A DNA stretch of 64,000 nucleotides from an uncultured Candidatus Saccharibacteria bacterium (GTDB lineage: Bacteria; Patescibacteriota; Minisyncoccia; Phycocordibacterales; UBA9973), in assembly GCA_964571085.1 (NCBI GenBank), contig CAZMZT010000001.1:18719-82718 (forward strand), in the 5' to 3' direction. The translations under genes were made by a program, and so were the position numbers. The notes under the pieces are model-generated. The model did not search any database. It saw only the letters and a list, made by a program, of their open reading frames with translations, and had not been told where the DNA came from. The stretch's first letter is position 1. Every line of letters begins with the position of its first letter. Positions 18,601-37,181 of the stretch are shown here, one piece after another.

Positions 18601-21600
18601 AAATCTTACAATAAGAGCTGGGTCAAGTATCAGTGGTGGCTTTGCTGGAGGAGCATTAAATTTATATGCTGGAGACGGTTCTGCTGGTATCGGTGGAGCA
18701 GTTAATATTATTTCAGGAGCTAGTGATACCGGAGGAGATATAAATATTACCGCAGCAGGCGGAACTCCAGGTAGTGGTGATGGAGGGTCTGTCTATATAA
18801 ATCCAGGACCTAGTTCTGGTGGGTCAGCAGATGGCAATGTAATTATTGCAAATACAGATGGTAAAGTTTCTATCGGCTCCACCACCGCAACCTCCCTCTT
18901 CAACGTTGGTTCTTCTGCTCAATTTCAAGTAACTTCAGCTGGTGTTACCAGTATCACGCCTGGTCAATCAGCAACCGCTCTCACGGTGGCTCGCACCGGT
19001 ACCAACTACGCCTTCCAAGTTGATACCAACACCGCATCATCAGCAACAGGATTGAAGGTCACCTCTGCAGCAGCAGGAGGTGGTCTTGCACTCACCACCA
19101 TCTCATCAGGTACTGATGAAAACGTAACGTTTGATGCAAAAGGCGCAGGTACCATCTCTATCGGTGCATCATCAACCGGCAATGTCCTCCTTGCGGGAGG
19201 ATCAAGCGCAACAGGTTGTACGGTTGATAACTCAAACGGCAACCTCACCTGTTCAGGTACCATCTCTGGATCTGGTGCTGTTGGCTACTGGACACGTTCA
19301 GGAACGACGATCTCTCCTGCAACCGCAAACGACATCCTCTCCGTTTCAACGAACTCAACCACTGCAAGCAACAAAGCAATCGAAGGACTCCAAACTGGTG
19401 CAACCACCGGCACTGACTATGCTGGTTACTTCTCAAACACTGGTGCGGCGACTACCAACGTTGGTCTCTATGCTACAGCAACAGGTGCAACAAATAATTA
19501 TGCAGCTCAGTTTAATGGTCTAACTGATGTTCAGTCTTCTTCAGGCTCATATGGAAGTTATTTACTTCTCTCAAATAATAGCGCAGGAACAAAGGTTGCT
19601 CTTAACGCTACTGCATACAATGGAGTATTATATGTTACTACCTCAGCAGGAGCTGCTGGTTCATTTTTAGGCACTGCTCTCAATGATCCTAATAATGGAT
19701 CTTTTGGTTTCTTTAATAATTACACCACAGGTCAGGGAATTGTAGCAGGTATTGCTAATGGTGCAGCCCAGACAGCACTCATTGTTAATAATGTGAACAC
19801 ACTTTCTACTGCTGGCGATAAATTACTCGCACTAAAGAATAATAGTACTGAAAAGTTATCAGTTGATTTCAATGGCTCGATAACTTCTGCAACGCTTACT
19901 TCTGGTGGGACACAATGTCTCCAAGCAAATAGCTCTGGAGTTATATCTGGTACAGGCACTGCTTGTGGAACCGGTGGTTCTACAAACTGGGATACTATCG
20001 GTGACCCATCAGGAAACGGCTCTATCGCAATGGGCGCAACAGTGCAAACGATGGATTGGGCAACTGCGACTACACAAAACGCACTTTCACTTATTGGGAA
20101 CTCTTTGACTTCAGGAAAACTTTTCTCTCTTACCTCAACAGCAACTGCATTTACAGGCAACCTTGCTAATTTCACACTTTCAGGATCAAACGCCGCAAAC
20201 ACGGGCTCGCTTGTTCAGGTAGATAATACTGGAACTTCAAATGCAAATACTTCACTTCTCATCAACCACTATGCTACAGGTACAGGCAACCTAGCTTTTA
20301 GAGTGAACGATGTTTCAGGGGATACATCACCATTTGTAATAGATGGAAATGGAAATGTGGGTATAGGCCAAGCATCACCGAATACACAACTTCATATTGG
20401 TCCAGGTACAGACGTGTCTGATGTCGCATCTACCAACTTAGCTGTTTTTCAAAACAATGGGTCATCATCTATTTCAGTTAGAGATGCATCTAGTAATTCG
20501 GAAGGATATCTATATTCAGATGCAGGGGGAGTTAGCTTTGGTTCGGTGACTTCTCATGCTGTTCAGATTGGTGCGAGTGGAGGATCAGCCATCTTTATTG
20601 ATGTTAGTAATAATGTAAATATAGGAGGTGATACTACACCAAACTCTATCTTTACTGTAGGTGGAGCTTCCGAATTCCAAGTTGATATATCAGGAAACAC
20701 ATCTTTATTTGGTGGAGCAGATCTTCGTTTTATAGAAACAGGTGGAGGAACAGATTTTGTTGCATTTCAAGCTCCCGCATCTGTTGCTACAAGTGTGACT
20801 TGGACATTACCAAATGCTGATTCTTCAGGATGTCTCCAATCAAATGGATCTGGAACTCTTTCTATAGCAAGCTGTGGGGGAGGAGGTGTGGCATGGAGTG
20901 CTATAACAAACCCAACAGGAGACCTAAACCTGACTTTTGATGCAGGTGAAGAAACAGTCTTTACAACGAACGCAACTACTGCGACTGCGTTTTCAATAAC
21001 TTCCGCTACGCTTTCTTCGGGGACACTTCTTGATCTGACCGTTACTGGAACTGCTGGAATTTCAAGCCAGAAAGCTCTTAATATCTCAACGTCAGGAGCT
21101 GTAACAGGGTCCAACTCTACATATGGTGCGTATATTTCAAATACACATACAGGAGCAAGCGCTACAAGTGTTGGTTTGTATGCAACAGCTTCAGGAGGGC
21201 AAACTAACTACGCGGCTCAATTTGCAGGAGGTATTTTTCAGTCAGGAGGGTTTGCATCATTTAATATAGGCTCTAGTGTCTTTGGTGTAGCTTCAACCAC
21301 TTACCCTGACTATATTTTTACTATCAATGATGGGGTTATAGCTATAGGAGATTACAATGGTCCAGATCTAAATAATACATATCTTCTTGTTGATGATACC
21401 AATAGTGTTATCTCCGCAAATGCTTCTAGCGGTTTTGTCTTTGGGGGATCTAATTTTGAGCTTTATCCAACAACAACATCTGGAGATGGATTTTATGTTA
21501 GTGCAAATACCATAACAACAGGTAAGGGGATAACCGTACAGTCTTCTTCGCTTACCTCTGGTGCACTTATGGATCTCACTTCTACAGGTACCGGAGCTCT

Positions 21601-24600
21601 CACTGGACAGAAAGGTCTTAACATTTCACTCTCTGGTGCAAACGGTACAGGTGCACAAACTACCTACGGTGCTTATCTTTCAAACACAAAAACAGGTACG
21701 TCAAATAACGTTGGTTTATATGCGACAGCAAGTGGAGGAGCAAGCAATTATGCTATTGATGCAGGCAACGCAATCAGGCTTTCTTCTGCAACAGCAACAG
21801 AGTCACGTATATATAGTGCGACCGGAGTTGGATACTTTGGAGTATCAGAAACTACTGCACAAGCAAACATGTACTACAACAACAACTTTATAACGGTAGC
21901 TACTGGTTCTATCTCTTTGAATACTGGAGGTAATGAAAAAGTAAACATAGGAACTTCAGCCACTGTCATAAATGAGAACAGTCTTGACTATGATTTCCGC
22001 ATTGAAGGCGACACTGATGCAAACCTTTTCTTTACTGACGCTTCAACTGATCGAGTTGCCATAGGTACCAATACTCCACGCAATGCGTTTACTCTTGAGA
22101 ACAATGTTGGGGGTACTGCGATTGGAAGTGTAACAGCGACAGCTGGTGATCTTTCAACTGAGTGGAATAATATTTCACAATTTAAGATTCAAAATGACCG
22201 AGACTTAGGTGGAGGCAATGCGCTCGCATTCTTTGTTTCTGGAACAAGTAATGAAAGAAAGGCATTTATTCAGTCAGGACATTCAGATGGTACTAATGCA
22301 AACAACCTCGGAGATTTGATACTTAATCCATTTGGCGGGAATATTGGCATAGGAGGAGATCTTTCGCCTAATGCACTTTTCTCTGTAGGCTCAACTTCTC
22401 AATTCCAAGTCAACTCTTCCGGTGCTATAGCTGCAGCTACAGGCATCACATCATCTGGTACTATCACTTTCTCAGGTCTTGGAGGAGCAGGAACAAAATG
22501 TTTACAGACAGATAACTCTGGTGTGGTGACAGCGGCAGCATCTGCTTGTGGAAGTGGTGGTGGGCTCACTGTCGGTACAACAGCAATTACTAGTGGTGGT
22601 ACTAACCGTGTTTTATACGAGAACGGTTCAAACATTCTTTCTGAGAGTGCAGACTTTACTTACGACGGTACGACTCTAGGTGTAGCTACTTCTTCTACTA
22701 CTGCTTCAAACAAAGCTCTCAATATTGCACAAACTGGTGGAACAACAGGTACTGACTATGCTGGGTACTTCTCAAACACAGGTGCAGCAACAACAAACGT
22801 CGGTTTGTATGCTACTGCTTCTGGCGGAACTACAAATCTTGCACTCAATGTAGATGCAGGTCAGACACTTCTCGGAGGTACAACACTCAGCACTGGTACA
22901 CTTGCAAAGCTAAACATTGTTTCTACTATGTCTTCTAACGGATCTACTACTGCTATAGCTGGAATTCACGGAGACTATACATTTAACAACGGCGGTACTG
23001 CTAGCTTTGTACAAGTTGGCAACAGATTTGTATTCAACAATGCACCGACAACCAATGCAAACACTATGGTGGGTGAAGTTATAAGAACAGTAGACAATAC
23101 TGCACTTGCAAACTTGGTCCGGGGTATAGATATTACTTCTAATGCCGGCAGTAACACTGCGGGTACAAATACAGGACTACGTTCTACAGGAGGAACCTTT
23201 GGTGTTCAAGCTATAACAAATGGTTCTGCAGGAGGAGTGGCGTTGCCAGCAGGTCTCTATGCAGAGAACACTGGCACGACTCAAGGAGATGTCGCGAGGT
23301 TCTACACAGGTTCTATGACTTCAGCAGCATCGATGCTCAGTGTCTATCATGATACTTCTACATTTACCGGTGACGCTCTAGTTATGGATATGGCTGTTGG
23401 CTCTGGATCATTTACAGGGGATTTCCTTGATCTCAAGAATGCTGGAGTGCAAAAGTTTAAGGTTACATCAGCAGGTGTAGTAAGTATGGGTCTTTCCGGT
23501 ACAGCAAGTACAAATGCTATATGTTCAAGCCTCGCTAACACTACTGCACCAACAGCAGGTACAGCTTATGAGATTAGGGATTGTAACGCAGCTCCAGCTG
23601 CTGACTATGCTGAAATGTACCCAATGGAAACTGGTATGGAGTTTGGCGATATAGTTGCAACTGGTAGTGAGGTGGTCAATACATATGATACTACTGATGG
23701 AAACATCGACTGGACCAAGGTAAAAGGCAAGATCACTCGTATGATAAAAACTACACAAAGCTATCAACCTAATGTTATAGGTATAGTAGTTGATAACTAT
23801 GGTGACTTTACTTCTGCTGGACACAACATAAAAGAAGTAGATAACCCAATGCCAGTCGCACTCAACGGCCGTGTACCAGTAAAGGTAGCAAGTGATTCTG
23901 ATCCAATAATGCCAGGAGACTATATTACTACTTCAGGTAGTGAACCAGGTAAAGCACAAAAAGCTAAAAAATCAGGGCAGGTTATAGGAAAGGCTCTTGA
24001 AGCTTGGGAGCCAAACTCTGGAGCTCTGACTGTAATGGTCTATGTTGAACAAGGGTACTACAATGGAACATCTGTTAGTGAGTTTGCGGGGATTGATCCG
24101 ATGGCAAGCGACTTTGCCAAGCAAGTCCTGAGTCATTTTATGAACAACCAGTCTACTCAAGCAGGGTCAGAACTTATCCTCGACAGGCTAGCTGTGGGTG
24201 TAGAAATAATAACTCCGAAAGTTGTCGCCAATGAATTGGAAGTCAATACTATTAGTACAAGCACTAGTGGTGATATAGGTCTAGTGCTCGGGTCTGATGG
24301 TAAATTTATCGTAAGTTCTGGTGATACACAAAACACAAACCCAGCCATCACATTTGATGCCCTCGGTAATGCTACTTTCGCTGGTAAAGTTACAGCAGGT
24401 GAGATAGAAGTCAGCAACCTCGCAGGAATACAAAGTATAACAGACCAGATCAATCAGCTTTCCGAAGGTCAGGTCGCATTTACTCTGACATCGCAAGTGA
24501 TAAACACACTATCAAGCGCTCTTACTATCGCACAAGCTGATATTTCTAAACTAAACCAAGACTTAGAAGCTCTAGAATCCTCAGTCACAGGCTTGGTTGC

Positions 24601-25333
24601 AAGTGGGGATGATCTAGAATCTAGGATAAACCTAGTAGAGACATTCTTTGCTACAGATGAATCAGGCAACCCAACTGGCATAGTCACAGTAGGTCTAAGC
24701 GTCAATGGAAACGGTAAATTTACAGGCCAAACAGAGTTTGACGGACTCTCATTCTTCTCAAACACTACTTCATTTACTGGTGGGGTCACATTTGCTGGCC
24801 AGACAGAGTTTGTCGTTCCTCCACTATATAACAAGGACTCTGCAGGCTACGCTCTGATAAAGCAAGGCGATAGGAGGGCTCAGATAACCTTCGATAAGCC
24901 TTATATTGCCACACCTGTAGTTAACACTTCAGTCACATTCGAAGAAGAAGACCTCGACGATACCGAGACCGCTACTTTCTTCGCAGATGACATAAGGTTT
25001 ATAGTTATGGGTAAAAATCAAGATGGATTTACTATAGTTCTCAACAAGCCAGCTACTCGAGACATTAGGTTCTCTTGGAATGCTCTGTCTGTAAAAGATC
25101 CCAATATATTTGAAAGTGTATTCGAAGGTCTAACTATAGAGCAAACTCCAGAACCTGAACCAGAACCAGAGCCGACACCCGAAACACCAGAAGGGGACGA
25201 AGCTCCTCCAGATGACTCTGGAGACGAACCACAAGAAACTCCAACTCCAGAACCTGAACCAGAACCAAGTCCAACTCCTGATGAACCCACACCCGACACA
25301 TCCTCACAACCAAGTCCAACACAAGAATCATAA
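15611..25333 (+). CDS. Giant (3240 aa) N-terminally membrane-anchored surface protein built of phage-tail-fibre-like repeat modules. It has a C-terminal globular domain, a coiled-coil region and a Pro/Glu/Thr-rich tail.
   Basis: A signal-anchor 'FHYVAYTILFVVVSFSIINIV' sits at the N-terminus. The repeated motif 'GNVGIG(D/T)T(S/A)P..L..V' is characteristic of tail-fibre-domain proteins. There are at least 5 modules, each opening with a Cys-x13-15-Cys-GGGG loop and then 'NPxGDxNLTFDAGEE'. Long protein-level repeats occur. A C-terminal coiled-coil 'ISKLNQDLEALESSVTGLV' and a PEPEPEP tail are present. Confidence 0.8.
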   Translation: MCFMLEAKKPKSLYPTKRILNKIRSKFSFHYVAYTILFVVVSFSIINIVTATTPNPGHPWLEIGDGAFQVTYNQTATRTYTFPDASTTVLTTNDLVTVAQGGTGVGSFTSNGVLYGNGTSALQVTAAGTTGQCLIGTTGSAPSWGSCTGSGISWSALVNPTGDQTLTFDAGEENIWTVGATTADFWTMTANSLTTGSLFRLVGDRGEDSSSKGLFESIATVDMSDGGDVNNAYFETNVNNTTDPGSIKGVYSLVTDDTTLDNSLKGGGFYVNATGDASKDILGVGAVALASAGVVAPEVVTGLTSSAISLGAFTSGLAELNGVIGSSELSSSDGGNANLYGVKAQTSVTLPTGGTINQYGVYVYNGSSSTTGTSTKYGLYVEDQTGADTNYSAIFAGGNVGIGDTSPTALFTVGSGDLFQVNSSGAIAAATGITSSGTITFSGLGTNSAVYTNGSSALTTTAPTSGTIGYWSRSGTTLSPATANDLVSISTNSTTADNKALQVSQTGATSGTDYAGYFANTGAATTNISLYSSATGATENISAFFENGSVGIGGYDSTIPLYINSSSASTLLKLFKSTGDAGISFGVEDLATDIGRIQGEFDNGPADLLLNPAGGNVGIGTTAPSAALEVVKTTEQLRVGYDETNYFTTTVGSSVNVMYELSQASGSWYWRNGTGVQSLFIGGNGDGFESLFRSSDGDAQSGLYLRGDLVGTNVSFLLSADDDTNPSVSITGDALAQTLTFDSVDHIFNGNVGIGDATPDDLLNIHSATASAGLAITSLGTDTDPYIKFELADGTSSFIMGVDDSDADKFKISTTALGTSDRFVIDSSGNVTIPDLGGGGTLCVQTDNNGTLSTTTCGGGGTWDTIGNPAADQNLTFDAGEETTWTINATTATNFAMNANALTSGTILSLTSNGTGALTGQKGLNISLSGANGTGAQTTYGAYLSNTKTGTSTNVGLYAEATGGSTNYAAQFNGDVNFTNVANRTISVANTAGAAGKNLTIRAGSSISGGFAGGALNLYAGDGSAGIGGAVNIISGASDTGGDINITAAGGTPGSGDGGSVYINPGPSSGGSADGNVIIANTDGKVSIGSTTATSLFNVGSSAQFQVTSAGVTSITPGQSATALTVARTGTNYAFQVDTNTASSATGLKVTSAAAGGGLALTTISSGTDENVTFDAKGAGTISIGASSTGNVLLAGGSSATGCTVDNSNGNLTCSGTISGSGAVGYWTRSGTTISPATANDILSVSTNSTTASNKAIEGLQTGATTGTDYAGYFSNTGAATTNVGLYATATGATNNYAAQFNGLTDVQSSSGSYGSYLLLSNNSAGTKVALNATAYNGVLYVTTSAGAAGSFLGTALNDPNNGSFGFFNNYTTGQGIVAGIANGAAQTALIVNNVNTLSTAGDKLLALKNNSTEKLSVDFNGSITSATLTSGGTQCLQANSSGVISGTGTACGTGGSTNWDTIGDPSGNGSIAMGATVQTMDWATATTQNALSLIGNSLTSGKLFSLTSTATAFTGNLANFTLSGSNAANTGSLVQVDNTGTSNANTSLLINHYATGTGNLAFRVNDVSGDTSPFVIDGNGNVGIGQASPNTQLHIGPGTDVSDVASTNLAVFQNNGSSSISVRDASSNSEGYLYSDAGGVSFGSVTSHAVQIGASGGSAIFIDVSNNVNIGGDTTPNSIFTVGGASEFQVDISGNTSLFGGADLRFIETGGGTDFVAFQAPASVATSVTWTLPNADSSGCLQSNGSGTLSIASCGGGGVAWSAITNPTGDLNLTFDAGEETVFTTNATTATAFSITSATLSSGTLLDLTVTGTAGISSQKALNISTSGAVTGSNSTYGAYISNTHTGASATSVGLYATASGGQTNYAAQFAGGIFQSGGFASFNIGSSVFGVASTTYPDYIFTINDGVIAIGDYNGPDLNNTYLLVDDTNSVISANASSGFVFGGSNFELYPTTTSGDGFYVSANTITTGKGITVQSSSLTSGALMDLTSTGTGALTGQKGLNISLSGANGTGAQTTYGAYLSNTKTGTSNNVGLYATASGGASNYAIDAGNAIRLSSATATESRIYSATGVGYFGVSETTAQANMYYNNNFITVATGSISLNTGGNEKVNIGTSATVINENSLDYDFRIEGDTDANLFFTDASTDRVAIGTNTPRNAFTLENNVGGTAIGSVTATAGDLSTEWNNISQFKIQNDRDLGGGNALAFFVSGTSNERKAFIQSGHSDGTNANNLGDLILNPFGGNIGIGGDLSPNALFSVGSTSQFQVNSSGAIAAATGITSSGTITFSGLGGAGTKCLQTDNSGVVTAAASACGSGGGLTVGTTAITSGGTNRVLYENGSNILSESADFTYDGTTLGVATSSTTASNKALNIAQTGGTTGTDYAGYFSNTGAATTNVGLYATASGGTTNLALNVDAGQTLLGGTTLSTGTLAKLNIVSTMSSNGSTTAIAGIHGDYTFNNGGTASFVQVGNRFVFNNAPTTNANTMVGEVIRTVDNTALANLVRGIDITSNAGSNTAGTNTGLRSTGGTFGVQAITNGSAGGVALPAGLYAENTGTTQGDVARFYTGSMTSAASMLSVYHDTSTFTGDALVMDMAVGSGSFTGDFLDLKNAGVQKFKVTSAGVVSMGLSGTASTNAICSSLANTTAPTAGTAYEIRDCNAAPAADYAEMYPMETGMEFGDIVATGSEVVNTYDTTDGNIDWTKVKGKITRMIKTTQSYQPNVIGIVVDNYGDFTSAGHNIKEVDNPMPVALNGRVPVKVASDSDPIMPGDYITTSGSEPGKAQKAKKSGQVIGKALEAWEPNSGALTVMVYVEQGYYNGTSVSEFAGIDPMASDFAKQVLSHFMNNQSTQAGSELILDRLAVGVEIITPKVVANELEVNTISTSTSGDIGLVLGSDGKFIVSSGDTQNTNPAITFDALGNATFAGKVTAGEIEVSNLAGIQSITDQINQLSEGQVAFTLTSQVINTLSSALTIAQADISKLNQDLEALESSVTGLVASGDDLESRINLVETFFATDESGNPTGIVTVGLSVNGNGKFTGQTEFDGLSFFSNTTSFTGGVTFAGQTEFVVPPLYNKDSAGYALIKQGDRRAQITFDKPYIATPVVNTSVTFEEEDLDDTETATFFADDIRFIVMGKNQDGFTIVLNKPATRDIRFSWNALSVKDPNIFESVFEGLTIEQTPEPEPEPEPTPETPEGDEAPPDDSGDEPQETPTPEPEPEPSPTPDEPTPDTSSQPSPTQES

Positions 25334-25348: not shown

Positions 25349-26299
25349 ATGAAAGATAACGAAAAAAAACTAAATAAGAAAATTAAAAATCAAAAGTGGA
25401 TCATATGCTCTCTAGCGCTAGTGTTGATTGTCAGCGGAGTGTTTTCATTTAAGTACTTTAGTGCTGATTCAGACTTTAGATCAGACTTCCCACTACTGGA
25501 TCCTTCTCGTAAATTTATTCCAAGCGAGAACTACATTACCAACATTGAAGAGCTCAGAGGGTACCTGAGAGAACTAGGTAGTAAGTATCCTGACTCAGTC
25601 ACTGTGTACTACGAGAACATCAACTCAGGTTCTAACATCTCTATCAACAAAGATTTGCGATTGTTTCCTGCTTCACTGTCTAAACTCGTCCAAGCTATAC
25701 TCATAGTAAATAAAATTGAAAAAGGTAAGATGTCTTTTGATCAAGAGTTGAAAGCAGAGCCTGGTGATATTTCTTCTGATTCAGGAGATCTGTACAAAAC
25801 TATCGGCGACAAACCCATGACCGTAGAAAAACTTCTCGAAGAGTTGCTTGTGAACTCTGACAATACTGCACAAAATATTTTCAGACATCAGCTAAACTTC
25901 GAAGACTACCTAGACTTTCAAAACACTACAGGTCTGCAGGATTTGTATAATGATCAAGGTTTCATCTCAGCAAAAGAATACACTCGTATCCTCCGAGTAC
26001 TCTATACTTCTAACTTCTTGAAACCAGAGAATTCACAAAAGATTCTAGGCTACATGGCCAGCTCTGAGTTCAAAGATTACCTATCACAAGGTGTACCTAG
26101 TGATGTCGAGTTTGCTCACAAGTATGGAGAAAATATAGACTACAATATTTTTGCTGATTCAGGGATTGTATATGTTCCTGGCAAGCCTTATATGATATCT
26201 GTCATTATAAAGGGTAAGGACTCTACAAATGAGACCCGCAAATGGGCTACCAACCTCATGAAAGAAATCTCAGAACGTGCTTATAATATAAGCAAATAG
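25349..26299 (+). CDS. Membrane-anchored serine hydrolase with a class A beta-lactamase/PBP-like fold.
   Basis: An N-terminal TM helix is present, with 'SLSKL' (SxxK) and 'NSDN' (SDN) motifs. A KYG sits at the position of the usual KTG. Confidence 0.5.
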   Translation: MKDNEKKLNKKIKNQKWIICSLALVLIVSGVFSFKYFSADSDFRSDFPLLDPSRKFIPSENYITNIEELRGYLRELGSKYPDSVTVYYENINSGSNISINKDLRLFPASLSKLVQAILIVNKIEKGKMSFDQELKAEPGDISSDSGDLYKTIGDKPMTVEKLLEELLVNSDNTAQNIFRHQLNFEDYLDFQNTTGLQDLYNDQGFISAKEYTRILRVLYTSNFLKPENSQKILGYMASSEFKDYLSQGVPSDVEFAHKYGENIDYNIFADSGIVYVPGKPYMISVIIKGKDSTNETRKWATNLMKEISERAYNISK

Positions 26300-26408
26300 T
26301 GTCGAAAATGAAAGTTTCTAGATCTTTTCCCTATGAATTATGTTGTCTATCTATCGGAGACACCTGTTTATCAACACCAAACACTATACACATTATACAT
26401 ATATAGGG

Positions 26409-26414
26409 TATAAT
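26409..26414 (+). promoter_or_regulatory. -10 box TATAAT upstream of the PATR giant gene.
   Basis: 'atatagggTATAATtaca' lies in a 189-bp AT-rich intergenic region. Confidence 0.45.
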
Positions 26415-26488: not shown

Positions 26489-29400
26489 GTGAAAAAATTT
26501 TTTGTTAATTCAATAAAGCTTTTTGCGATAATATTTATCGTAGGGTTTTTGTGTTTTGGTTTCAAGCCCTCCAATGCAGATGCTGCGATTCGTACTTGGA
26601 CCGGGACAGCTAGTGGATCTTGGTCCAATCCTTCCAACTGGGGAGGTACTGCACCTGTCACAGGGGATGACTTGGTTTTCCCAGGTGGCGCATCAAACCT
26701 TTCGAACACCAACGACCTCATAGAAAACACAATAATCAACTCCATCACTCTATCGGGGAGTGGGTACACCCTCTCTGGGAATTCTATAATACTTGGTCCA
26801 GGTCTTGCAGGTATCACCGATAGTGCTTCTTCTGGTGGCAATACCATTGCTCTCAACATTCGCCTCGGTGCAACTCGAGACATCATAGTGACAAACACCG
26901 CAGAAACACTTACTATCAGTGGAACAATTGCAGGTGTAGGTGGTATCAACAAAGAAGGGACAGGCAAGATCGTGCTATCTGGTGGAAATAAATTTGGTGG
27001 AATTTTGAAAATCAATGTCGGTGTCGTCAATGCACAAAGCAATACCGCACTCGGGACAATTGCAGCAGGTACTGAAGTTGTCGGAGGAGCAGCCCTCGAA
27101 CTACAAGGCAACATAGATATCAGTTACGAAGCATTAGCTCTTCGTGGATATGGAGTGAGTAATACTGGAGCTCTAAGAAATATTAGCGGAACAAATACAT
27201 ACCGCGGACTTATTACGTTGTCTTCTGCTGGAGGTACAGAGATAGCTTCTGACTCAGGAACTCTGACTATTACTGGTGGAACTACAGGGAATGCTCCGTT
27301 AGTATTTGATGGATCAGGGAACATGGTGTTCTCTACAGCACCAATTGCTGGTAGTGGTGCGATTACTAAAAATGGTTCTGGTACAGTAACTTATAATTTC
27401 CCAAACACTAACACTGGTCTACTAACCATCAACGCAGGAACTATTCTGTACGGAGTTGATAACGCTATACTTACAAGTGCGATCACTATCACAGGTGGGA
27501 CACTTGATGTCGCAACATACTCTGATATGGTTGGTACTGTTACACTCGGAACTTTAGATTTAGCGAGTGGAACCATTACAGGCTCTACTGGCATACTAAG
27601 CAGTGCAGCGTTTACTCTATATAATGGAACAATTAGTGCAATTATTGCCGGGGATGGAGGAGCTCTGACTAAAAGCACGACTGGTACAGTTGTGATAACA
27701 CGCCCTAATCAATACACTGGTGCTACAACTATAAGTGCGGGTATTTTAGAGATTCAAGACAGCACTTCACTTGGTTTGATAGATGGCATTACCACAGTGG
27801 CAGCTGGTGCGACTTTGCAGATAAACGGGGACGGACTCTCTATTCCTGAATACATAACTTTTTCTGGAACAGGGCATCTTTATACAGGAGCAATAAGGAA
27901 TAGAACAGGAGACAATACCCTAACAGGCTTACTAACTCTAGGTGCAGCCGCAATGATAGAGTCTGATGTCAGCACTACTCTGACTATAGATAGCAAAGGC
28001 CTATCTGCCACAACCTTGGGTCTTACTGTCGGTGGTGCTGGAAACACAACCTTTACTTCTACCGCACCTATATATGGTACAAGCGCAACACTTACAAAAA
28101 ACGATACTGGTGTACTAACTATAGAATCATTTAGTAACTTTACTGGAGCTACAAACCTCCTTCGTGGAGAGGTCGTGCTCGGCAGTTATGGAGCTATACC
28201 TAGATCTACTATTACTATAGGTAGTGGTGGGGAACTAACACTCGACAACACCTCTACAACTATCCTCGATCGTGTCAGTGACACAGCGGCTCTAACTATG
28301 AACGGAGGGTCTCTGAACTTTATAGGCAACCCGTCGTCTCTCGCATCAGAGACAATCGGCGCACTCACTATCGCCTCGGGACACAATACTGTCACTGTCA
28401 CTCCCGGCGCGGGCGGGCCTACCACTATGACTTTTGCAAGTTTGTCGCGTACGGCTGGAGCCACGGTGCTCTTCCGTGGGACTAAACTTGGTTCGTCCCC
28501 GGGGCCCAATATATCTACGATTATGTTCACTACTACTCCAGCAGTACTAGGTGCAGGTGGTGCAGCAGGTACTACTACCACAAGTGTCATCAAAGGTGCA
28601 TTTGGAGATAATTCTCTCTCTGGGACAGGGAGTGATATGGTCGTGCACAACCTTGGAAATACAAATGGCCTCCGACTTCTCAATGGCGCTGGATTCTCTG
28701 GTGAGTATGCTTTCACACTTGCGACAAATGCCAATGTAAAATTAAATGCAGATACTGTAGCAAGTACAGCAAGTATCAACTCTCTTATTCTAGATGGATT
28801 TAGTATTACAAATCCTGGGAGTGCGCAAACTATCACGCTCTCATCTGGATCTCTTGCTGGAAATATTCTTATGAATTCAGCGACTAGTATTGCCGGAGCA
28901 AATACAACGCTTGGCATAACTACTAACCACCTCGATATTTTGACAACAGCTAGCGCTACTATCTCTGCGGTCATTGGTACTGCAGTGGCTGGATCAGTTG
29001 CTATCAGTGGTACAGGGAGTGTCACAGCAAGTACTGCTAACCTCTACACCGGTACAACATTTATCAACAATGCAACACTTTTTGCGGGAGCAACTAACAT
29101 ACTCTCAAGTGGAGGTGTGACGGTGGTAGGGGGTACATATGATTTAGGAAACTTCAGTGACACAGTTGGTGCTGTAACACTTCAAAATGGAACTATAACT
29201 AGTGGATCAGGTACTTTATCAGGAACTTCTTATAGTCTTCGTGAAGGAACTGTCAGTGCAATCTTGGGTGGAGGAGCCGCAGCTGTCACGCGTGTTGCTA
29301 CAAGTGCAGCTGCTGATAGTGTGGTGACTCTAACTCGTGACAATACCTATACCGGAACAACAACTATTACGAGCGGTATACTTAGACTCGGCGCAACGGG

Positions 29401-32400
29401 TGGTGGAACAAATACACCACTTGGTACCACTGGTGGGGGAACACTTATCGCAAGTGGAGGAGCCCTAGATCTCAACGGTTTTACTCTGGGAACAGCTGAA
29501 GCTATAACATCTTTAGCAGGAACAGGTTTCGGTGCTTCTGGTAGTAGTAACATGGGTGCTATTATGAATAGCTCAGCTTCACCCGTGAGTTACAGCGGAG
29601 CTCTGACTCTTACCGCCGCCGCTCGTATCAATGCCGATGCTGGAGCTCTCACTATTAGTGGTAATGCATCAGGAAACTTTGCTCTAACTTTCGCTGGCTT
29701 TAGCAATGTTACTTATTCAGGAGTACGTTCTGGTACTAGTACTATCGTAAAAGTTGGAGTAAATACACTGACCCTTTCAAACGGAAGCTCGTCTTATACA
29801 GGTCTAACTACTATCAGTGAAGGTACTGTAAAAGTTGGCGCAGCATCAGTCGGTGGAACAAACTCACCGCTAGGCACAACTGGAGCTGCCACTACTGTAG
29901 CTCTCGGTTCTCGCCTTGATCTTAATGGATTTAACCTAGGAATAGCAGAACCACTAACTCTAAACGGTGTCGGGTATGGGCTCGGAGACTTTGCGAGTGG
30001 TGCTCTCATGAATAGCTCAGGAACTTCTGTGACCTATACTGGGCTTATCACACTCGGCTCGGCATCTACTATTAAAGCTGATTCAGGGAATATTAGCTTA
30101 ACAGCTGCTGGTACCATATCAGGGAATACTTTTGGTCTAACTATTGGAGGAGAGGGTACGGGCACACTTTCAAGTATTATAGGTACAACATCAGGAACAG
30201 TTACAAAAATAGGTTCTGGCACTTGGACACTTTCTGGACAGAGTACTTTTACTGGTGCGACATCTGTTAACCTTGGAACCCTAAAACTCGGAGTAAGTGG
30301 GGGAGCAACAAACAGTCCTCTCGGCACTACAGGTGCTGGTACGACTGTTTATACTGGTGCAGCTCTAGATTTCAATGGCTTTACTATGAGTACGGCCGAA
30401 GCTTTAGCGATTAATGGACGAGGAATTAATGACGGAGGAGCATTTATCGGGAGTAGTGGTACCTTTAGTGGCGCTATTACTCAAGGTACAGATTCTCGCA
30501 TTGTAAATGCTTCTGGAACATTGACACTTTCTGCTGCAGTTGGAGGAGCATTTGCTCTATATATAGGAGGTGCAGGTAATATTACTACTAGTGCTGTTTT
30601 TGCTGCAAGTGCTCTCTCTATTACAAAACAAGGTGCAGGGACTATGACTGTAACAGGAGCTAATTTATATACTGGAATCACACGTGTTGATGCTGGCACA
30701 TTTGCTTATGCAGCTACCACTACTCTTGTCGGTACAAACTTGATAATGAATGGAGGTACATTTAATAATGGAGCAAATGCTGACACTATCGGTACGGTCA
30801 CACTTATCGGTGGAGTTATTACCAACTCAGCAGCGCTCACAGCAGCGACTTCATATACTCTAGAGAGTGGAACTATTAGTGGAATTATCGCTGGTGCAAT
30901 TCCTGTAATAAAAAATACAAACAATACTGTTACACTCACTGGTGTGAATACTATAAGTAGTAGTACTACAATCAATGCCGGAACACTTACTATAAGTGGC
31001 TCAGGTTCAGCAACAGCCACTACTATTACTGTAAACCTAGGTGGTACACTAACTCTAGACAACAGTACCACTGCTGTCGCTAGTCGCCTGGGCGATGCGC
31101 TTGCCCTTACTATGAACGGAGGTAACTTCAACTTTATCGGTAATTCTGCTGCAGCTTCTTCTGAAACTACAGGAGCGCTCACTCTATCAACTGGTCATAA
31201 TGTGGTGACAGTTACTCCTGGTGCTGGAGGTTCAACAACTATGACGTTTGCAAGTCTTGCCCGTACGGCTGGAGCGACTGTCCTCTTCCGTGGTACAAGT
31301 TTGGGATCCAACGCAGCATCCAATGTTTCTACTCTAGTATTTACTGCTACACCAACCCTAACAGGGGCAGGTGGCGCGTCTGGGTCAGCGACAGTTAGTG
31401 TCATCAAGGGTGCATACGGCGATAGCTCTCTCTCTGGAACAGGTTCTGATATGGTTACATACCAGGGTGGAGTAGGACTCCGCTTGCTAAATGGCGCTGG
31501 ATTTGCCAATGAATACAGTGGTGACTTCCAAACTGCCAATGCCAATGTAAAGCTCACAGCTGACCGTCCAGCAGTAGCTACCAACACCAACTCACTCATA
31601 CTCAATGGCTTTAGTGTTACTAACCCTGGTGGAGCAGTTACAATACCCATGGCTTCTGCTTCGCTCGCTGGAAACATCCTGATCAACTCCGCAAACAACA
31701 TCGCTGGTGCAAACACAACTTTAGGTATTACAACATTTGAGCTTGATATCTTGGCTACAGCTAACTCCACCATCTCAGCTATTATCGGTACGGCAACGAC
31801 TGGTTCAGTAGTCTTGAGTGGGACTGGCAATGTCACCTTAAGCGCAGCCAACCCTTATACAAGTACAACATTTATTAACGGCGCCACTCTTACCGCTGGA
31901 GCAAGCAATGTGTTATCAAGCGGGGGAGTGACTATGAAAGGTGGTTTGTATAATCTCAATGGCAATTCAGATACTATAGGGGCTCTTACTCTTACTGCTG
32001 GTAGTGTATCTACAGGAGCAGGAACACTAACACTAGGAGGAACAGTGACAACTATAGCCAATGCCAACTTCACTTCACTTATAACAGGGAACTTGGGCCT
32101 CGGCGCAGCTAGAACATTTGATATTGGCGACGGGCTTATGGACAATGATGCGATTATTACTGCGGTAATAAGTGGTGCTTTCGCTCCAACAAAAAGTACT
32201 GGTGCCGGAGTGTTAATGTTTTCTGGCGACAATACTTACTCTGGTTTAACTACAATTAGTGCTGGAACATTACGTCTCGGTGCAGCTGGTGGAGTAACCA
32301 ACACACCACTTGGGACAACGGTTGCAGGAACAACAGTATCTGGTGCAAGCTCGGCCCTCGACTTGAATGGATTCACTCTAGGCACTACCGAGGCTCTGAC

Positions 32401-35400
32401 TTTATCTGGAGCTTTGGCAACAGGTGCACTACAAAATACTTCTAGTACATCTGTGAACTATAGTGGGCTAGTTACTCTGGGTGCTGCTAGTACTATTATT
32501 GCTAACTATGGAGATATAAATATTACAAATACTGGTAACATAACCGGTAACACATTTGGACTAACTATAGGAGGTGCAGGGAATGGAACACTCGCAAGCA
32601 ACCTAAATACTACAACTGGAACTCTAACAAAAAATGGCCTCGGCCTCTGGACTATATCTGGTGGAGCTAGTACATTTACAGGTCTTACTACTATCAGTGC
32701 TGGTACTTTAAAGCTCGGCTCTGCAGGGAGTGGGTCAAATACACCACTCGGTACAAATGCCGGGGGAATCACTATCACCTCTGGAGCGGTCTTTGATGTT
32801 AATGGATTCACTTTAGCTACAGCAGAACCAATTGGATCTTTGAATGGAACAGGTCTTGCAAGTATTGGGGCCTTTATAAATAGTTCCAATAGCAGTGTGT
32901 CTTATAGTGGTGCAATTACTCTCGGCACAGCCTCCCGTATTGTAAATCATGGTACTGGAACTATGACAATAAGTGGCAATATCTCAGGAAACTTTGCCCT
33001 TACAATAGTTGCTGTAGGTAATTTTACTCAGGCTACTAATAGTGTTCGCTCAGGTTCTAGTACAATAATAAAAGAAGGATCAGGTACATTAATTTTAGGA
33101 GGGCAGAATAGCTTCACTGGTGCTGTTACGGTAAGTACTGGAAAGCTCCAGCTTGGAGCAAATGGAGGTGTAACAAATACTCCGCTTGGTACCATAGCAG
33201 GAGGTGTGATTGTATCTGCTGGAGCAGTTCTAGATCTCTCTACTTTTACAGCTGGTGGAGCTTCAACTTGGGAGCCTCTAACTCTAGCTGGTAGTGGTAT
33301 CCTAAACGGCGGAGCACTGATAAGTAACTCTTCAACTGGCAGTACTTTCGCCACTGTTGCCCAGACAACTACACGCATTGTAAACAATGGTGCAGGGACC
33401 CTTACATTTACAGGAGCAGTTACTGGAGCTTCTGCTCTTTGGATAGGTGGAACAGGTAATACGACAATATCAGGAGCACTAAACACTGCTGGTATTCTGC
33501 TTACTAAATACGGTGCTGGTAGTCTGACTCTAAGTAGTGCTGTAAATATAAACACCTCACTCGTTCGTATTAACGAAGGGACACTTGTCTACGGAGTAGC
33601 CGATGCACTATCTACACCACCCGTAACTATAGCTGGAGGAACTCTAAATTTGAATGGATTCAATGAAACCAACATCGGGTTGATCACTATGATCGATGGA
33701 TCTATTGTGAATACTGGGGGAGCAGGAACATTAGTCTCTACAGCAACAGCTACTGTTGAAAAAGGCACAATCAGCGCTGTGATTGCTAGTACAGTATCAA
33801 CATTACTTACAAAAAACAGCGCCGGGAGATTCATAATGTCAGGTAACAATACTTTTACAAGTACTGCTATTACATTTAATGCTGGGTATATAAAACTTCA
33901 ACATAGCAACGCACTCGGTGCTGCTGGAACTGCACTTGCATCCACTATTTCTGCTGGGGCAACTCTAGAGCTTGAAAATGGTATTACAATACCAAGCACC
34001 AAAACCATAACAGCCAATGGTACTGGTATGATCAACACTGGTGCTATTAGAAATGTAAGCGGCACAAACTCGATAGGAGCAAACCTGACTTTAGGATCAA
34101 CCAACGTACGTGTGAACTCGGACAGCGGAGCTCTTACTATACCTACGGTGTCTGGTAACACATTTAACTTGATAGCCGGTGGTGCTGGAGACACAGCGAT
34201 CACTGGTGCGATCAGTACGACAAGTGGAAATCTGACTAAAGATGGTGCTGGTACACTCACACTTTCTGGAGTCAACACATTTTCTCGTGCTACAAATATA
34301 ATTTCTGGAACAGTTGTAGCCAACTCTACTAGTGCACTTGGTGATGCAAGCTCTACCAACACTTTGATTTTCAACGGTGGAACATTGCAAGCTTCAGGAG
34401 ACATCACATCTATATCTAGTCGTGCAGTAACCTTAAACTCAGGCGGGGGCACTATCGATACAAATGGTAACGCCGTAAGTATCGCCGGAACTGTAGGATC
34501 AATAGGAGGACTCACTAAAACCGGGGCTGGTACTCTGATCATAACTGGGGTCACTACTATCGGCGGGGACCTGACTATTTCTACAGGTACTTTTGTAGCA
34601 CCAACAAGTCTAACTATAAGCGGTGACCTCGATAATAGTGGCACATTTACGCATAGTAACGGTACTGTCACTATAGTACCTACAAGTCCTACACTCACTA
34701 CAAACATCCTAGGTAGTTCTGATACTACTTTCTATAATTTCACTAATACTACTGCTGGCTCAACTCTACAATTTAGAGAAGGCAACACTTATACTTTTGC
34801 AAATGTCTTCACACTGACAGGAGCTGACGGGAACCCTATCTCGATAAACTCTGACACTCCTGATTCACAATGGCTTATGACGCTGTCAGGCTCAGCTTCT
34901 ATGTCTTATATAAAAGTAAAAGACAGTGGTTGTGTTGGTGGTAACAATGTAGGAGCGAGTAGCACTATAATCGATTACGGTAACAATGGCTCATGTTGGC
35001 AATTTATTGCTGTAATTAAAAGTGGTGGTGGCGTTGTTGAAGCTTCTGCTCCTCCAGATGGAGATGTCGGTGGTGGTGGAGGAGGAGGTAGCGGTGGTGG
35101 AGGAGCAACCAATGCAATAGCTACCGCAGTAGTGTCTTCTAATGTTGTACAGAGTGTCACTATAAATGCTGGAGGTAGTGGTTATACATCTGTACCAACT
35201 GTACTATTTTGTGGCGGTGGTGGAACTGGAGCTCTTGGAACCGCAGTTCTGACTAGTGGGGCAGTGTCTAGTGTTACAGTAGATAATGGGGGATCAGGAT
35301 ATTCTAGTGCCCCTACTGTAGTATTCAATAGTAACTGTCCTACAACTGGTGGAGGCGGCGGTGGAGGCGGCGGTGGCGACATAGGGTTCATATATAAAAT

Positions 35401-37061: not shown

Positions 37062-37065
37062 TATC

Positions 37066-37079
37066 AAGTTATCCACAAT
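37066..37079. promoter_or_regulatory. Second copy of the 14-mer AAGTTATCCACAAT (DnaA-box consensus).
   Basis: It is an exact match to 15528..15541, 5 nt after a stop codon. Confidence 0.4.
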
Positions 37080-37168: not shown

Positions 37169-37181
37169 CAGTAGTTATATT

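What the first reader, a model, noticed from the sequence alone, without database searches (positions are those of the whole stretch)
25349..26299. Beta-lactamase-fold serine hydrolase wedged between the two giant surface genes
SxxK ('SLSKL') and SDN ('NSDN') motifs are present, with KYG in place of KTG and an N-terminal membrane anchor. The protein sits in a 15-bp gap after the giant fibre gene. It could process the neighbouring giant proteins or act on peptidoglycan, the cell's own or a host's.
Basis: partly seen in the sequence, partly recalled or inferred. Interest (0 to 1): 0.5.

Follow-up and report, generated by a model that had tools for sequence, protein, structure and literature searches.

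The report
Penicillin-binding-type enzyme tied to giant surface proteins
This gene encodes a membrane-tethered enzyme with the fold of a class A beta-lactamase that lacks the parts that make such enzymes destroy antibiotics, and in many ultrasmall (Patescibacteria) genomes it is always encoded beside giant cell-surface proteins, so it is more likely a cell-envelope helper than a resistance gene.

Summary
ORF 25349-26299 (+, 316 aa) starts 15 bp after the 3240-aa gene. It has an N-terminal hydrophobic anchor, S109-L-S-K112, S170-D-N172 and K258-Y-G260.

It is not a canonical beta-lactamase:
- It scores 89 bits on NCBIfam bla_class_A against a cut-off of 200.
- The omega-loop region is about 12 residues shorter, with no fixed Glu166 equivalent.
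- Across 115 family representatives the residue after the motif-3 Lys is I/F/Y/W/V/M in 108 and never Thr/Ser.
- The Arg244 position is aromatic or hydrophobic.

The acylation residues are essentially invariant.

The new finding is context. In the closer relatives (>=57% identity) the order giant A, this gene, giant B is conserved wherever the flanks allow a check. In relatives at 35-52% identity a 700-2768 aa same-strand gene follows in 19 of 23 loci, against a 3.3% background. That gene carries a conserved, uncatalogued N-terminal leader.

Best reading (0.45): an outward-facing PBP-like peptidase that serves the giant-surface-protein module, probably by editing peptidoglycan. A dedicated processing or anchoring role (0.25) is not excluded. 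Novelty: a new variant of a known kind.

The parts
25349..26299 (+). Gene for the 316-aa class-A-fold / PBP-A-like serine enzyme (the finding)
   Evidence: ORF. Pfam PF13354 E 1.7e-36. AF2 model pLDDT 85. Best structural matches are PBP-A 2J7V and class A beta-lactamases.
25397..25453 (+). Residues 17-35 (WIICSLALVLIVSGVFSFK): hydrophobic signal-anchor helix, preceded by a Lys-rich cytoplasmic N-terminus (residues 1-16)
   Evidence: Kyte-Doolittle maximum 2.09, with 7 K/R before it; same layout in 25 orthologues. The AF2 model has one helix over residues 2-38. No AxA-type cleavage site follows (read from the sequence; inference).
25673..25684 (+). Motif 1, S109-L-S-K112 (catalytic Ser and Lys; S70/K73 of class A numbering)
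   Evidence: Codons read. Invariant in 26/26 close orthologues. S in 114/115 and K in 115/115 family representatives. Aligned to BlaZ S70-T-S-K73.
25856..25864 (+). Motif 2, S170-D171-N172 (SDN loop)
   Evidence: Codons read. S 115/115, D 113/115, N 110/115. Aligned to the SDN of BlaZ.
25931..25969 (+). Residues 195-207 (GLQDLYNDQGFIS): shortened omega-loop equivalent between helices 184-194 and 208-220. D198 and N201 are invariant only in the close clade.
   Evidence: Secondary structure. 12-column gap against TEM-1 covering R164-E166. Left unaligned by the profile against BlaZ. Length is 13-15 residues in 88/115 family members, and the columns are variable.
26120..26128 (+). Motif 3, K258-Y259-G260 (in place of K-T/S-G); preceded by the conserved H257
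   Evidence: Codons read. K 115/115, G 111/115, H257 109/115. Position 259 is I37/F30/Y20/W8/V8/M5 and never T or S.
26150..26173 (+). Strand beta-4, F268-A-D270-S-G272-I-V-Y275: family signature D-[CS]-G-I-V-Y. F268 occupies the place of the carboxylate-binding Arg244.
   Evidence: BlaZ alignment gives R244<->F268 and D246<->D270. D270 113/115, G272 114/115, Y275 113/115. Position 268 is Y44/F31/L14/H9 and never R or K.
15611..25333 (+). Upstream partner 'giant A' (3240 aa, no Pfam match): Sec-type N-terminus, repetitive body, conserved C-terminal ~1000 aa, and a variable Pro/Glu/Thr-rich tail. It ends 15 bp before the enzyme gene.
   Evidence: The C-terminal part is conserved upstream of the enzyme gene in close relatives, and a weaker match is kept in more distant loci such as Kerfeldbacteria L021. 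Tails compared, N-termini.
26489..35461 (+). Downstream partner 'giant B' (2990 aa, 9 PATR repeats): Sec-type signal peptide ending A-x-A|A-(T/I)-R-T-W
   Evidence: Conserved downstream of the enzyme gene at 65-84% identity in the closer relatives. N-termini compared.
26385..26414 (+). Promoter-like site in the 189-bp spacer before giant B. No + strand terminator-like site lies between giant A, the enzyme gene and giant B.
   Evidence: consensus scan only; weak evidence.

Best explanation
The gene encodes an outward-facing enzyme, held at the membrane by an uncleaved N-terminal helix, that belongs to the class A beta-lactamase / PBP-A structural lineage. It keeps the residues needed to form an acyl-serine intermediate: Ser109, Lys112, Ser170-Asp-Asn172 and Lys258-x-Gly260. 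It lacks the full omega loop with Glu166/Asn170 that lets class A enzymes deacylate beta-lactams quickly. It also lacks the Thr/Ser235 hydroxyl and Arg244 that hold the substrate carboxylate. So it should behave as a penicillin-binding-protein-like peptidase, not as a resistance enzyme. It is a fixed accessory of a gene module for giant surface proteins. The mechanism I commit to is a DD-peptidase, more likely of the endopeptidase type than a carboxypeptidase. It would cut or trim peptidoglycan stem peptides next to the membrane, locally editing the wall where the neighbouring giant proteins emerge or are held. Shown here: the fold, motif conservation, loss of the beta-lactamase-specific features, the membrane-anchor signature and the conserved gene linkage. 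Inferred: the substrate (peptidoglycan), the endopeptidase preference, and the functional tie to the giants.
For: Fold and family:
- Pfam PF13354, E 1.7e-36.
- AF2 model with pLDDT 85.
- Foldseek's best hit is PBP-A 2J7V, E 7.5e-18, TM 0.80.
- PBP-A is an experimentally shown DD-carboxypeptidase/endopeptidase that lacks the omega-loop Glu (PMC11189452).

Catalytic residues: they are invariant in 26 orthologues and nearly so in 115 representatives at the 50% identity level.

Not a beta-lactamase:
- NCBIfam bla_class_A gives 89 bits against a cut-off of 200.
- The omega region is about 12 residues shorter and unalignable.
- Position 259 is never T/S and position 268 is never R/K.

Topology: a Lys-rich N-terminus plus a 19-residue hydrophobic helix in all orthologues.

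Linkage:
- The order giant A, enzyme, giant B is found throughout the closer relatives (>=57% identity) wherever the contig flanks allow a check.
- A same-strand ORF of at least 700 aa lies within 1.6 kb upstream in 17/17 and downstream in 15/18 close loci. The three misses are truncated giants or a giant lying behind a paralogue.
- The same holds downstream in 19/23 distant loci.
- Only 6/184 (3.3%) of other complete genes in the same loci are that long.

Peptidoglycan in this organism: the window also carries a Glu/Asp racemase and a VanY-type enzyme.
Against: - No activity was or could be measured.
- All DD-peptidases and beta-lactamases that I know of keep Thr/Ser in motif 3 to bind the D-Ala carboxylate. 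Its complete absence here (0/115), together with an aromatic residue at the Arg244 position, argues that the substrate may not be a classical D-Ala-D-Ala terminus.
- Patescibacteria have a separate canonical S11 DacA-like protein with SLSK, SSN and KTG (loci L025-L028). The window also has a VanY DD-carboxypeptidase. Ordinary trimming may therefore already be covered.
- Conserved synteny in small, streamlined genomes can persist without a functional link.
- D198 is invariant in the close clade, and 112/115 members have at least one acidic residue in the short loop. A general base for deacylation therefore cannot be excluded without atomic coordinates.
Confidence: 0.45

Rival explanations
1. 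It is a dedicated maturation or anchoring enzyme for the neighbouring giant proteins. The acyl-serine enzyme would cleave a juxtamembrane segment of the partner, for example at the conserved A-x-A-A of the leader. Alternatively it would transfer a peptidoglycan stem peptide onto the protein. That would resemble a substrate-linked signal peptidase such as SipW, which is encoded between tapA and tasA, or a sortase-like system.
For: - In 35-52% identity relatives, the gene right downstream encodes otherwise unrelated large proteins (BNR, LamG/DUF2341 and PATR bodies). They share only an ~85-aa N-terminal leader: a TM helix, GFP, [KRN][IV][IV]DxL[YW], [IV][IV]D and A-x-A-A.
- A regular expression for this leader hit 32 times in six-frame translations of all 90 loci plus the window. 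Every hit was the ORF immediately 3' of the enzyme gene.
- 'Diverse bodies, shared terminal tag, enzyme next door' is the usual signature of a sorting or processing pair (general knowledge).
- Both the enzyme and the leader are juxtamembrane.
- Loss of the carboxylate-binding Thr/Ser235 and Arg244 fits a substrate that is not D-Ala-D-Ala. Beta-lactamase-fold enzymes that left that substrate, such as family VIII esterases and D-aminopeptidase, also changed motif 3 (my recollection, not tested here).
Against: - No enzyme with the class A fold is known to cut ribosomal L-peptides.
- The window's own clade lacks the long leader. Giant B there has an ordinary Sec signal peptide, with A-x-A|A directly after the hydrophobic core, which signal peptidase I should handle. 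Yet the enzyme is still 57-77% conserved.
- Giant A has no conserved C-terminal tag, only a variable Pro/Glu/Thr tail.
- The leader matched no NCBIfam model.
- The reciprocal test failed for technical reasons.
Confidence: 0.25
2. It is a housekeeping low-molecular-weight PBP (DD-carboxypeptidase) of the cell's own wall, and its position between the giants is inherited synteny without functional meaning.
For: - The closest characterised relative, PBP-A, is a DD-peptidase.
- The family is well conserved (57-77% identity among orthologues) and broad (262 representatives at E<=1e-30).
- The locus sits beside pheS/pheT in several genomes, so it lies in a core chromosomal region.
Against: - Linkage to large surface-protein genes survives even where the flanking genes have been exchanged for different large proteins. 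It is about 25-fold above the background frequency of genes that long.
- The genes are tightly coupled, with a 15-bp gap here and overlaps in distant loci.
- The carboxylate-binding residues expected of a carboxypeptidase are missing.
Confidence: 0.1
3. It is a peptidoglycan hydrolase aimed at the host or prey, delivered at the contact site made by the giant adhesins, like the predatory DD-endopeptidases of Bdellovibrio.
For: - Patescibacteria are largely epibionts, and giant surface proteins are thought to mediate host attachment (PMC8080830).
- That paper also notes that predatory bacteria use DD-endopeptidases on prey walls.
Against: - The N-terminus looks like an uncleaved membrane anchor with only a ~15-residue linker. 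That keeps the active site at the cell's own membrane.
- No secretion or delivery domain is present.
- The similarity to Bd3459 is no better than to any other PBP.
Confidence: 0.1
4. It is a true class A beta-lactamase that protects the cell's PBPs from environmental beta-lactams.
For: - JGI annotates many members as 'beta-lactamase class A'.
- SxxK, SDN and KxG are present.
- The ectodomain is acidic (pI ~5.0), a property that the PBP-A paper associates with beta-lactamases.
- D198/N201 are invariant in the close clade.
- Some class-A-like proteins from the candidate phyla radiation hydrolysed penicillins weakly in vitro (PMC9145738).
Against: - It scores far below the NCBIfam class A cut-off (89 against 200 bits).
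- The omega loop is truncated and there is no conserved acidic column in the family.
- Thr/Ser235 and Arg244 are absent.
- The proteins tested in PMC9145738 had K-T-G and still gave no MIC change in E. coli.
- Being membrane-anchored and fixed in a surface-protein module is not how resistance genes behave.
Confidence: 0.07

Closest known systems
PBP-A (Tll2115) of Thermosynechococcus elongatus, PDB 2J7V: a class-A-fold DD-carboxypeptidase/endopeptidase
   Different: Identity is only 20-21%. The window protein has K-Y-G in motif 3, with a hydrophobic or aromatic residue there across its family, a membrane anchor, and an N-terminal extension (residues 46-72) conserved in its clade. It is linked to giant surface-protein genes. 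I could not read PBP-A's own motif 3 or loop length with these tools.
Class A beta-lactamases (BlaZ/PC1, TEM-1, TLA, PER) and weakly active relatives such as LRA-5
   Different: The omega region is about 12 residues shorter, with no Glu166/Asn170 pair at alignable positions. Tyr replaces Ser/Thr235 and Phe replaces Arg244. It scores 89 bits against 200 on the NCBIfam class A model. It is membrane-anchored.
Uncharacterised class-A-like proteins from structural genomics (E. faecalis 3CJM, Chitinophaga 6V4W, Veillonella 4HES) and BlaB of Streptomyces cacaoi (2WUQ)
   Different: None of them has a described function that could be transferred. No PDB sequence shares the H-K-[YF]-G-E ... D-[CS]-G-I-V-Y signature.
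S11 DacA/PBP5-type DD-carboxypeptidases, including the Patescibacteria ones in loci L025-L028
   Same: They share the exact stretch LFPASLSKL around the catalytic Ser, and an N-terminal anchor. There is a borderline Pfam Peptidase_S11 hit, 27.7 bits against 27.6, over 76 residues only.
SipW of Bacillus subtilis (tapA-sipW-tasA): analogy in gene layout only
   Same: A processing enzyme encoded between the genes of its two secreted surface substrates (my recollection of established knowledge).
   Different: The fold and chemistry are unrelated, since SipW is a signal peptidase. No cleavage has been shown here.

Membership tests
Pfam PF13354 Beta-lactamase2 (class-A-fold superfamily) | Score above the curated gathering threshold over most of the model | tested here: met
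   126 bits against a cut-off of 22, E 1.7e-36, profile positions 2-213 of 214.
Class A beta-lactamase (functional enzyme) | S70-x-x-K73 | tested here: met
   S109-L-S-K112. S in 114/115 and K in 115/115 family representatives.
Class A beta-lactamase (functional enzyme) | S130-D-N132 | tested here: met
   S170-D171-N172: 115, 113 and 110 of 115.
Class A beta-lactamase (functional enzyme) | K234-(T/S)235-G236 | tested here: not met
   K258-Y259-G260. Position 259 is I/F/Y/W/V/M in 108 of 115 representatives and never T or S.
Class A beta-lactamase (functional enzyme) | Full-length omega loop carrying the general base Glu166 and Asn170 | tested here: not met
   Only 13 residues lie between helices 184-194 and 208-220. 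There is a 12-column gap against TEM-1 over R164-E166. The region is unaligned to BlaZ by the profile. The loop columns are variable in the family. Caveat: D198 is invariant in the close clade, and its position in space could not be inspected.
Class A beta-lactamase (functional enzyme) | Basic residue binding the substrate carboxylate (Arg244 or Arg220) | tested here: not met
   By alignment to BlaZ, Arg244 corresponds to F268. Family position 268 is Y/F/L/H and never R or K. The region equivalent to 220 has no conserved Arg. This rests on sequence alignment, not coordinates.
Class A beta-lactamase (functional enzyme) | NCBIfam bla_class_A (NF033103) equivalog cut-off | tested here: not met
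   89 bits against 200.
Class A beta-lactamase (functional enzyme) | Rapid hydrolysis of beta-lactams | not testable with these tools
   Needs enzyme assays.
PBP-A-type class-A-fold DD-peptidases | Class A fold, closest to PBP-A | tested here: met
PBP-A-type class-A-fold DD-peptidases | No catalytic Glu in the omega loop | tested here: inconclusive
   There is no alignable Glu166. However, acidic residues occur somewhere in the short loop in 112/115 members.
PBP-A-type class-A-fold DD-peptidases | DD-carboxypeptidase/endopeptidase activity on (amidated) muropeptides; stable acylation by penicillin | not testable with these tools
   This is the property of PBP-A reported in PMC11189452.
PBP-A-type class-A-fold DD-peptidases | Close sequence relationship (same family rather than same fold) | tested here: not met
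   20-21% identity. phmmer E 4.5e-11, no better than to BlaZ at 2e-11.
Peptidase S11 (DacA/PBP5-type) | Full-length match to the S11 model, with SxN and KTG motifs | tested here: not met

The most novel reading that the evidence does not exclude
The K-(hydrophobic)-G branch of the class A / PBP-A fold is the enzyme half of a previously undescribed two-part system in Patescibacteria. The enzyme recognises a conserved juxtamembrane leader (TM, GFP, IVDxLY, VVD, A-x-A-A) or another tag on giant surface proteins. It then either releases the protein from the membrane or couples it covalently to peptidoglycan through an acyl-enzyme. That would make a penicillin-binding-protein fold work as a protein-sorting enzyme.
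Probability: 0.2. Interest if true: 0.8.

Novelty: new variant of a known kind. Interest (0 to 1): 0.5.

Why it matters
[quoted passage not shown] This analysis suggests that this whole branch is not a resistance determinant. The branch has 262 clusters at the 50% identity level with E<=1e-30.

The family is instead a strictly linked companion of the giant surface proteins that are thought to mediate attachment of these ultrasmall epibionts to their hosts. That gives a concrete, small and expressible protein to test: Bocillin binding, muropeptide assays, and leader-peptide cleavage. Through it one could approach how 300-kDa proteins cross or attach to the wall of a bacterium with a minimal genome.

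If the enzyme turned out to act on the proteins themselves, it would be a new use of the penicillin-binding fold.

Tried and rejected
1. Residue-level placement of D198/N201 relative to Ser109. The tools return no coordinates or per-residue structural alignments. phmmer alignments to three BlaZ mutants place the loop in three different ways, so the sequence cannot settle it.

2. Reading PBP-A's own motifs. PBP-A never ranked among the five alignments printed.

3. Foldseek against afdb50. The library was not available.

4. Metagenome scan with a 41-sequence alignment. A 9-sequence alignment worked.

5. Reciprocal test, starting from the leader to ask whether every leader-bearing protein has the enzyme upstream. 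The 74-position profile gave only one hit at E<=0.01 in a database of 5.8 billion proteins. This was uninformative.

6. Known-family searches for the leader and for the N-termini of both giants found nothing significant (NCBIfam). The conserved C-terminal 577 aa of giant A has no relative in the PDB by sequence. Giant A has no Pfam match.

7. A C-terminal recognition tag on giant A was rejected. Its orthologues end in variable low-complexity Pro/Glu/Thr tails.

8. A second PBP-like gene in the window was searched for and not found.

10. Literature searches found no description of this linkage. The library is limited, so this is absence of evidence only.
Full report
**1. The observation**

The ORF at 25349-26299 (+) is real. 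It is 316 aa long and starts with the first ATG after the stop of the 3240-aa ORF 15611-25333, leaving a 15-bp gap.

I verified the motif codons in the DNA:
- A108-S109-L-S-K112 at 25670-25684
- S170-D-N172 at 25856-25864
- K258-Y-G260 at 26120-26128

The N-terminus has 7 Lys/Arg in residues 1-16, followed by the most hydrophobic 19-residue stretch of the protein (17-35, Kyte-Doolittle 2.09). All 25 aligned orthologues share this layout. The AlphaFold model draws one helix over residues 2-38. No small-x-small cleavage site follows the helix, so an uncleaved signal anchor is the likelier reading. That last point is an inference.

**2. What the protein is**

Sequence evidence:
- Pfam places it in PF13354 Beta-lactamase2 (E 1.7e-36, 126 bits against a cut-off of 22, nearly the full model). 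A Peptidase_S11 hit is borderline and partial.
- NCBIfam's class A beta-lactamase equivalog gives only 89 bits against a cut-off of 200. Every named beta-lactamase family scores far below its threshold.
- By sequence, the nearest solved structures are S. aureus BlaZ (2e-11) and Tll2115/PBP-A of Thermosynechococcus (4.5e-11).

Structural evidence:
- An AlphaFold2 model built on 26 orthologues has mean pLDDT 85.
- Foldseek ranks PBP-A chains first (E 7.5e-18, TM 0.80), followed by class A beta-lactamases, LRA-5 and BlaB.

The fold assignment is therefore secure.

PBP-A is an experimentally characterised DD-carboxypeptidase/endopeptidase. It lacks the catalytic omega-loop glutamate of class A beta-lactamases. 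Introducing that Glu raised its beta-lactamase activity 90-fold (PMC11189452).

**3. Conservation of the active site**

The family is large:
- 338 proteins were found in the word-indexed search, the best 120 at 60-98% identity.
- An exhaustive profile search found 262 clusters at the 50% identity level at E<=1e-30, and 3099 at E<=1e-10.

In 26 close orthologues, S109, K112, S170, D171, N172, K258 and G260 are invariant. Tyr259 is nearly so, with Phe in some.

In 115 full-length representatives of the wider family:

| Position | Count (of 115) |
|---|---|
| S109 | 114 |
| K112 | 115 |
| S170 | 115 |
| D171 | 113 |
| N172 | 110 |
| H257 | 109 |
| K258 | 115 |
| G260 | 111 |
| D270 | 113 |
| G272 | 114 |
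| Y275 | 113 |

**4. What is missing**

Three features separate this family from working class A beta-lactamases.

(a) *The omega loop.* The model has only 13 residues between helices 184-194 and 208-220. MAFFT against TEM-1 opens a 12-column gap exactly over H158-L169, which contains R164 and E166. A profile of the family aligned to BlaZ splits in two and leaves residues 180-213 unaligned. The segment G195..S207 is 13-15 residues long in 88 of 115 family members, against 26 in TEM-1, and its columns are variable. D198 and N201 ('GLQDLYN') are invariant only within the close clade. 112 of 115 members have some acidic residue in the loop, but not at a fixed position.

(b) *Motif 3.* The residue after Lys258 is I37/F30/Y20/W8/V8/M5 and never Thr or Ser. 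This is a property of the clade, not a quirk of this gene.

(c) *Arg244.* In the BlaZ alignments Arg244 corresponds to F268. Across the family this position is Y/F/L/H and never basic.

From established knowledge of class A enzymes and PBPs, Thr/Ser235 and Arg244 (or Arg220) hold the carboxylate of the beta-lactam or of the terminal D-Ala. Glu166/Asn170 activate the deacylating water. The acylation half of the machinery is therefore kept. The fast-deacylation device and the classical carboxylate subsite are not. I could not inspect coordinates, so whether Asp198 reaches the active site remains open.

**5. Genomic context**

The window is a chromosome piece from a member of the Patescibacteria. 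Related loci are titled Minisyncoccia, Patescibacteria group, Ca. Kerfeldbacteria, Ca. Pacebacteria, and (from an automated pipeline) Ca. Saccharibacteria.

The local gene order is:
- pheS (12878-13648)
- pheT (13652-15502)
- giant A (15611-25333, no Pfam match)
- the enzyme gene
- giant B (26489-35461, 9 PATR repeats)

No + strand terminator-like site separates these genes. A promoter-like site lies in the 189-bp spacer before giant B (weak evidence).

The same order, giant A then enzyme then giant B, is found in every species-level genome with enough flank among relatives at 57-75% identity. In those loci:
- Giant B is 65-84% identical.
- The C-terminal ~1000 aa of giant A are mostly 50-74% identical where that part is in the locus.
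- Some genomes insert a second PF13354 paralogue (28% identity, E 1.2e-34) or an HSP20 gene on the opposite strand between the enzyme and giant B.

**6. The linkage holds far beyond the close clade**

A metagenome scan recovered 62 more loci.

| Test: same-strand ORF of at least 700 aa within 1.6 kb | Result |
|---|---|
| Close loci, upstream | 17/17 |
| Close loci, downstream | 15/18 |
| Distant loci (35-52% identity), downstream | 19/23 |
| Distant loci, upstream | 11/22 |
| Other complete genes in the same loci that are this long | 6/184 (3.3%) |

The three downstream misses in close loci are giants cut by a contig end or lying behind the paralogue.

In distant loci the downstream gene usually overlaps the enzyme gene or follows within tens of bases.

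These downstream proteins have different bodies: BNR/TraK_N, LamG/DUF2341, PATR-like. They share an N-terminal leader of about 85 aa with these elements in order:
- a Lys-rich start
- a TM helix
- (G)FP
- a spacer
- [KRN][IV][IV]DxL[YW]
- [IV][IV]D
- A-x-A-A

A regular expression for this leader hit 32 times in six-frame translations of all 90 loci and the window. Every hit was the ORF immediately downstream of the enzyme gene. NCBIfam has no model for the leader.

The window's own clade lacks the long leader:
- Giant B there has an ordinary Sec signal peptide ending A-x-A|A-(T/I)-R-T-W.
- Giant A has a TM segment followed by A|TTPNPGHPW.
- Giant A's C-terminus is a conserved domain followed by a variable Pro/Glu/Thr tail with no conserved end motif.

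A giant-A-like protein also sits upstream of the enzyme gene in more distant loci:
- L021 (Kerfeldbacteria, enzyme 41% identical)
- L061 (42%)
- L071 (52%)

In L022 the genes after the large neighbour are homologues of window ORFs 37182-42313. The module therefore extends downstream.

**7. Interpretation**

Shown here:
- a catalytically intact, membrane-tethered, outward-facing acyl-serine enzyme of the class A / PBP-A fold
- loss of the beta-lactamase-specific features
- a conserved and statistically strong partnership with large surface-protein genes

Inferred: the substrate.

I commit to a PBP-like DD-peptidase that edits peptidoglycan at the membrane-wall interface in the service of the giant proteins (0.45). 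I favour an endopeptidase-type activity because the subsite for a terminal carboxylate is gone.

The main rival (0.25) is that the enzyme acts on the giant proteins themselves, by leader cleavage or by coupling them to the wall. Supporting it:
- the 'diverse bodies, shared terminal tag, enzyme next door' pattern
- the juxtamembrane position of both partners
- the altered motif 3

Against it:
- No enzyme of this fold is known to have such chemistry.
- The window's clade keeps the enzyme although its giant B has a plain signal peptide.

The other rivals are a housekeeping DD-carboxypeptidase with incidental synteny (0.10), a host-directed wall hydrolase (0.10) and a true beta-lactamase (0.07). 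Patescibacteria also have a canonical S11 DacA-like protein with KTG in another context. The window encodes a VanY-type DD-carboxypeptidase. Ordinary trimming may therefore be covered by other genes.

**8. Comparison with the known, and novelty**

The protein belongs to Pfam PF13354 and to the structural group of class A beta-lactamases and PBP-A. It fails four defining tests of a functional class A beta-lactamase: motif 3 Thr/Ser, the omega loop with Glu166, Arg244, and the NCBIfam cut-off. It is too distant from PBP-A (20-21% identity) to be filed in that family.

Databases already label members 'beta-lactamase class A' or 'serine hydrolase'. The existence of the family is therefore not new. 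In the literature available to me, I found no description of three things:
- the K-(hydrophobic)-G / D-[CS]-G-I-V-Y signature
- the truncated omega region as a trait of the clade
- the fixed partnership with giant surface proteins and the leader motif

The one experimental paper on 'beta-lactamases' of the candidate phyla radiation tested K-T-G proteins and saw no MIC change in E. coli (PMC9145738).

I rate this a new variant of a known kind, with interest 0.5. The gene itself is a routine fold assignment. The conserved enzyme-giant protein module is a testable lead into how these epibionts build their surface.

Noticed in passing
L039 10905-11150; L062 1770-2010; L021 3868-4080; 32 loci in all (L021-L023, L039-L090): A conserved ~85-aa N-terminal leader (Lys-rich start, TM helix, GFP, [KRN][IV][IV]DxL[YW], [IV][IV]D, A-x-A-A) on otherwise unrelated 700-2768 aa proteins. 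It is found only on the gene immediately downstream of the enzyme gene, and has no NCBIfam match.
   Followed up: partly
L001 11308-12318; L016 4360-5388; L024 1558-2571; representatives P0168, P0171-P0173 (~600-627 aa): A second PF13354 paralogue (28% identical, H-K-F/Y-G-E motif with an insertion after it) sits between the enzyme gene and giant B in some genomes. Some family representatives are about 600 aa long with two matched stretches, that is, tandem fusions of two such domains.
   Followed up: partly
L003 10991-11698 (-); L012 10957-11748 (-); also L013, L014, L031-L033, L036: In several relatives an opposite-strand gene of 235-295 aa occupies the spacer between the enzyme gene and giant B. 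It was confirmed as HSP20 in L003/L004 and L012. In the window that spacer is only 189 bp.
   Followed up: no
window 35531-42313 (+): A run of seven small to mid-size ORFs after giant B has no Pfam match or only weak ones (WxL-interacting PG-binding domain, Big_6/dockerin, cohesin). Two pairs are paralogous (35973/37182 and 40293/41162). Homologues of five of the ORFs follow the large neighbour of the enzyme gene in the distant locus L022, so the surface module probably extends this far.
   Followed up: partly
window 53825-55459 (-): A 544-aa protein fuses a PGA_cap (capsule synthesis, CapA-like) domain to a VanY-type D-Ala-D-Ala carboxypeptidase domain (E 1.4e-69 and 6.2e-39).
   Followed up: no
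window 49929-50873 (+): A single 314-aa ORF combines a NusB domain (E 2.7e-33) with a NUDIX hydrolase domain (E 3.5e-16).
   Followed up: no
window 24950-25333 (giant A C-terminus) and 35330-35461 (giant B C-terminus): Giant A ends in a conserved small domain ('...DIRFSWNALSV...') followed by a Pro/Glu/Thr-rich tail that varies in length and sequence between species. Giant B ends in a run of about ten Gly followed by a short hydrophobic or amphipathic tail (DIGFIYKIKRMFAFLENFGFNSIKNYI).
   Followed up: partly
L025 9821-10744; L026 6650-7582; L027 9731-10681; L028 9764-10702: Canonical S11 DacA-like DD-carboxypeptidases of Patescibacteria (SLSK, SSN, KTG) share the exact nonapeptide LFPASLSKL with the enzyme studied here. 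They sit in a different context with no giant genes.
   Followed up: partly
L022 (contig CAZQHN010000001.1, 304 kb): The record is titled 'uncultured Gammaproteobacteria bacterium'. However, the locus carries the Patescibacteria-type enzyme, a leader-bearing neighbour, and homologues of window ORFs 37182-42313. The taxonomic label looks doubtful.
   Followed up: no
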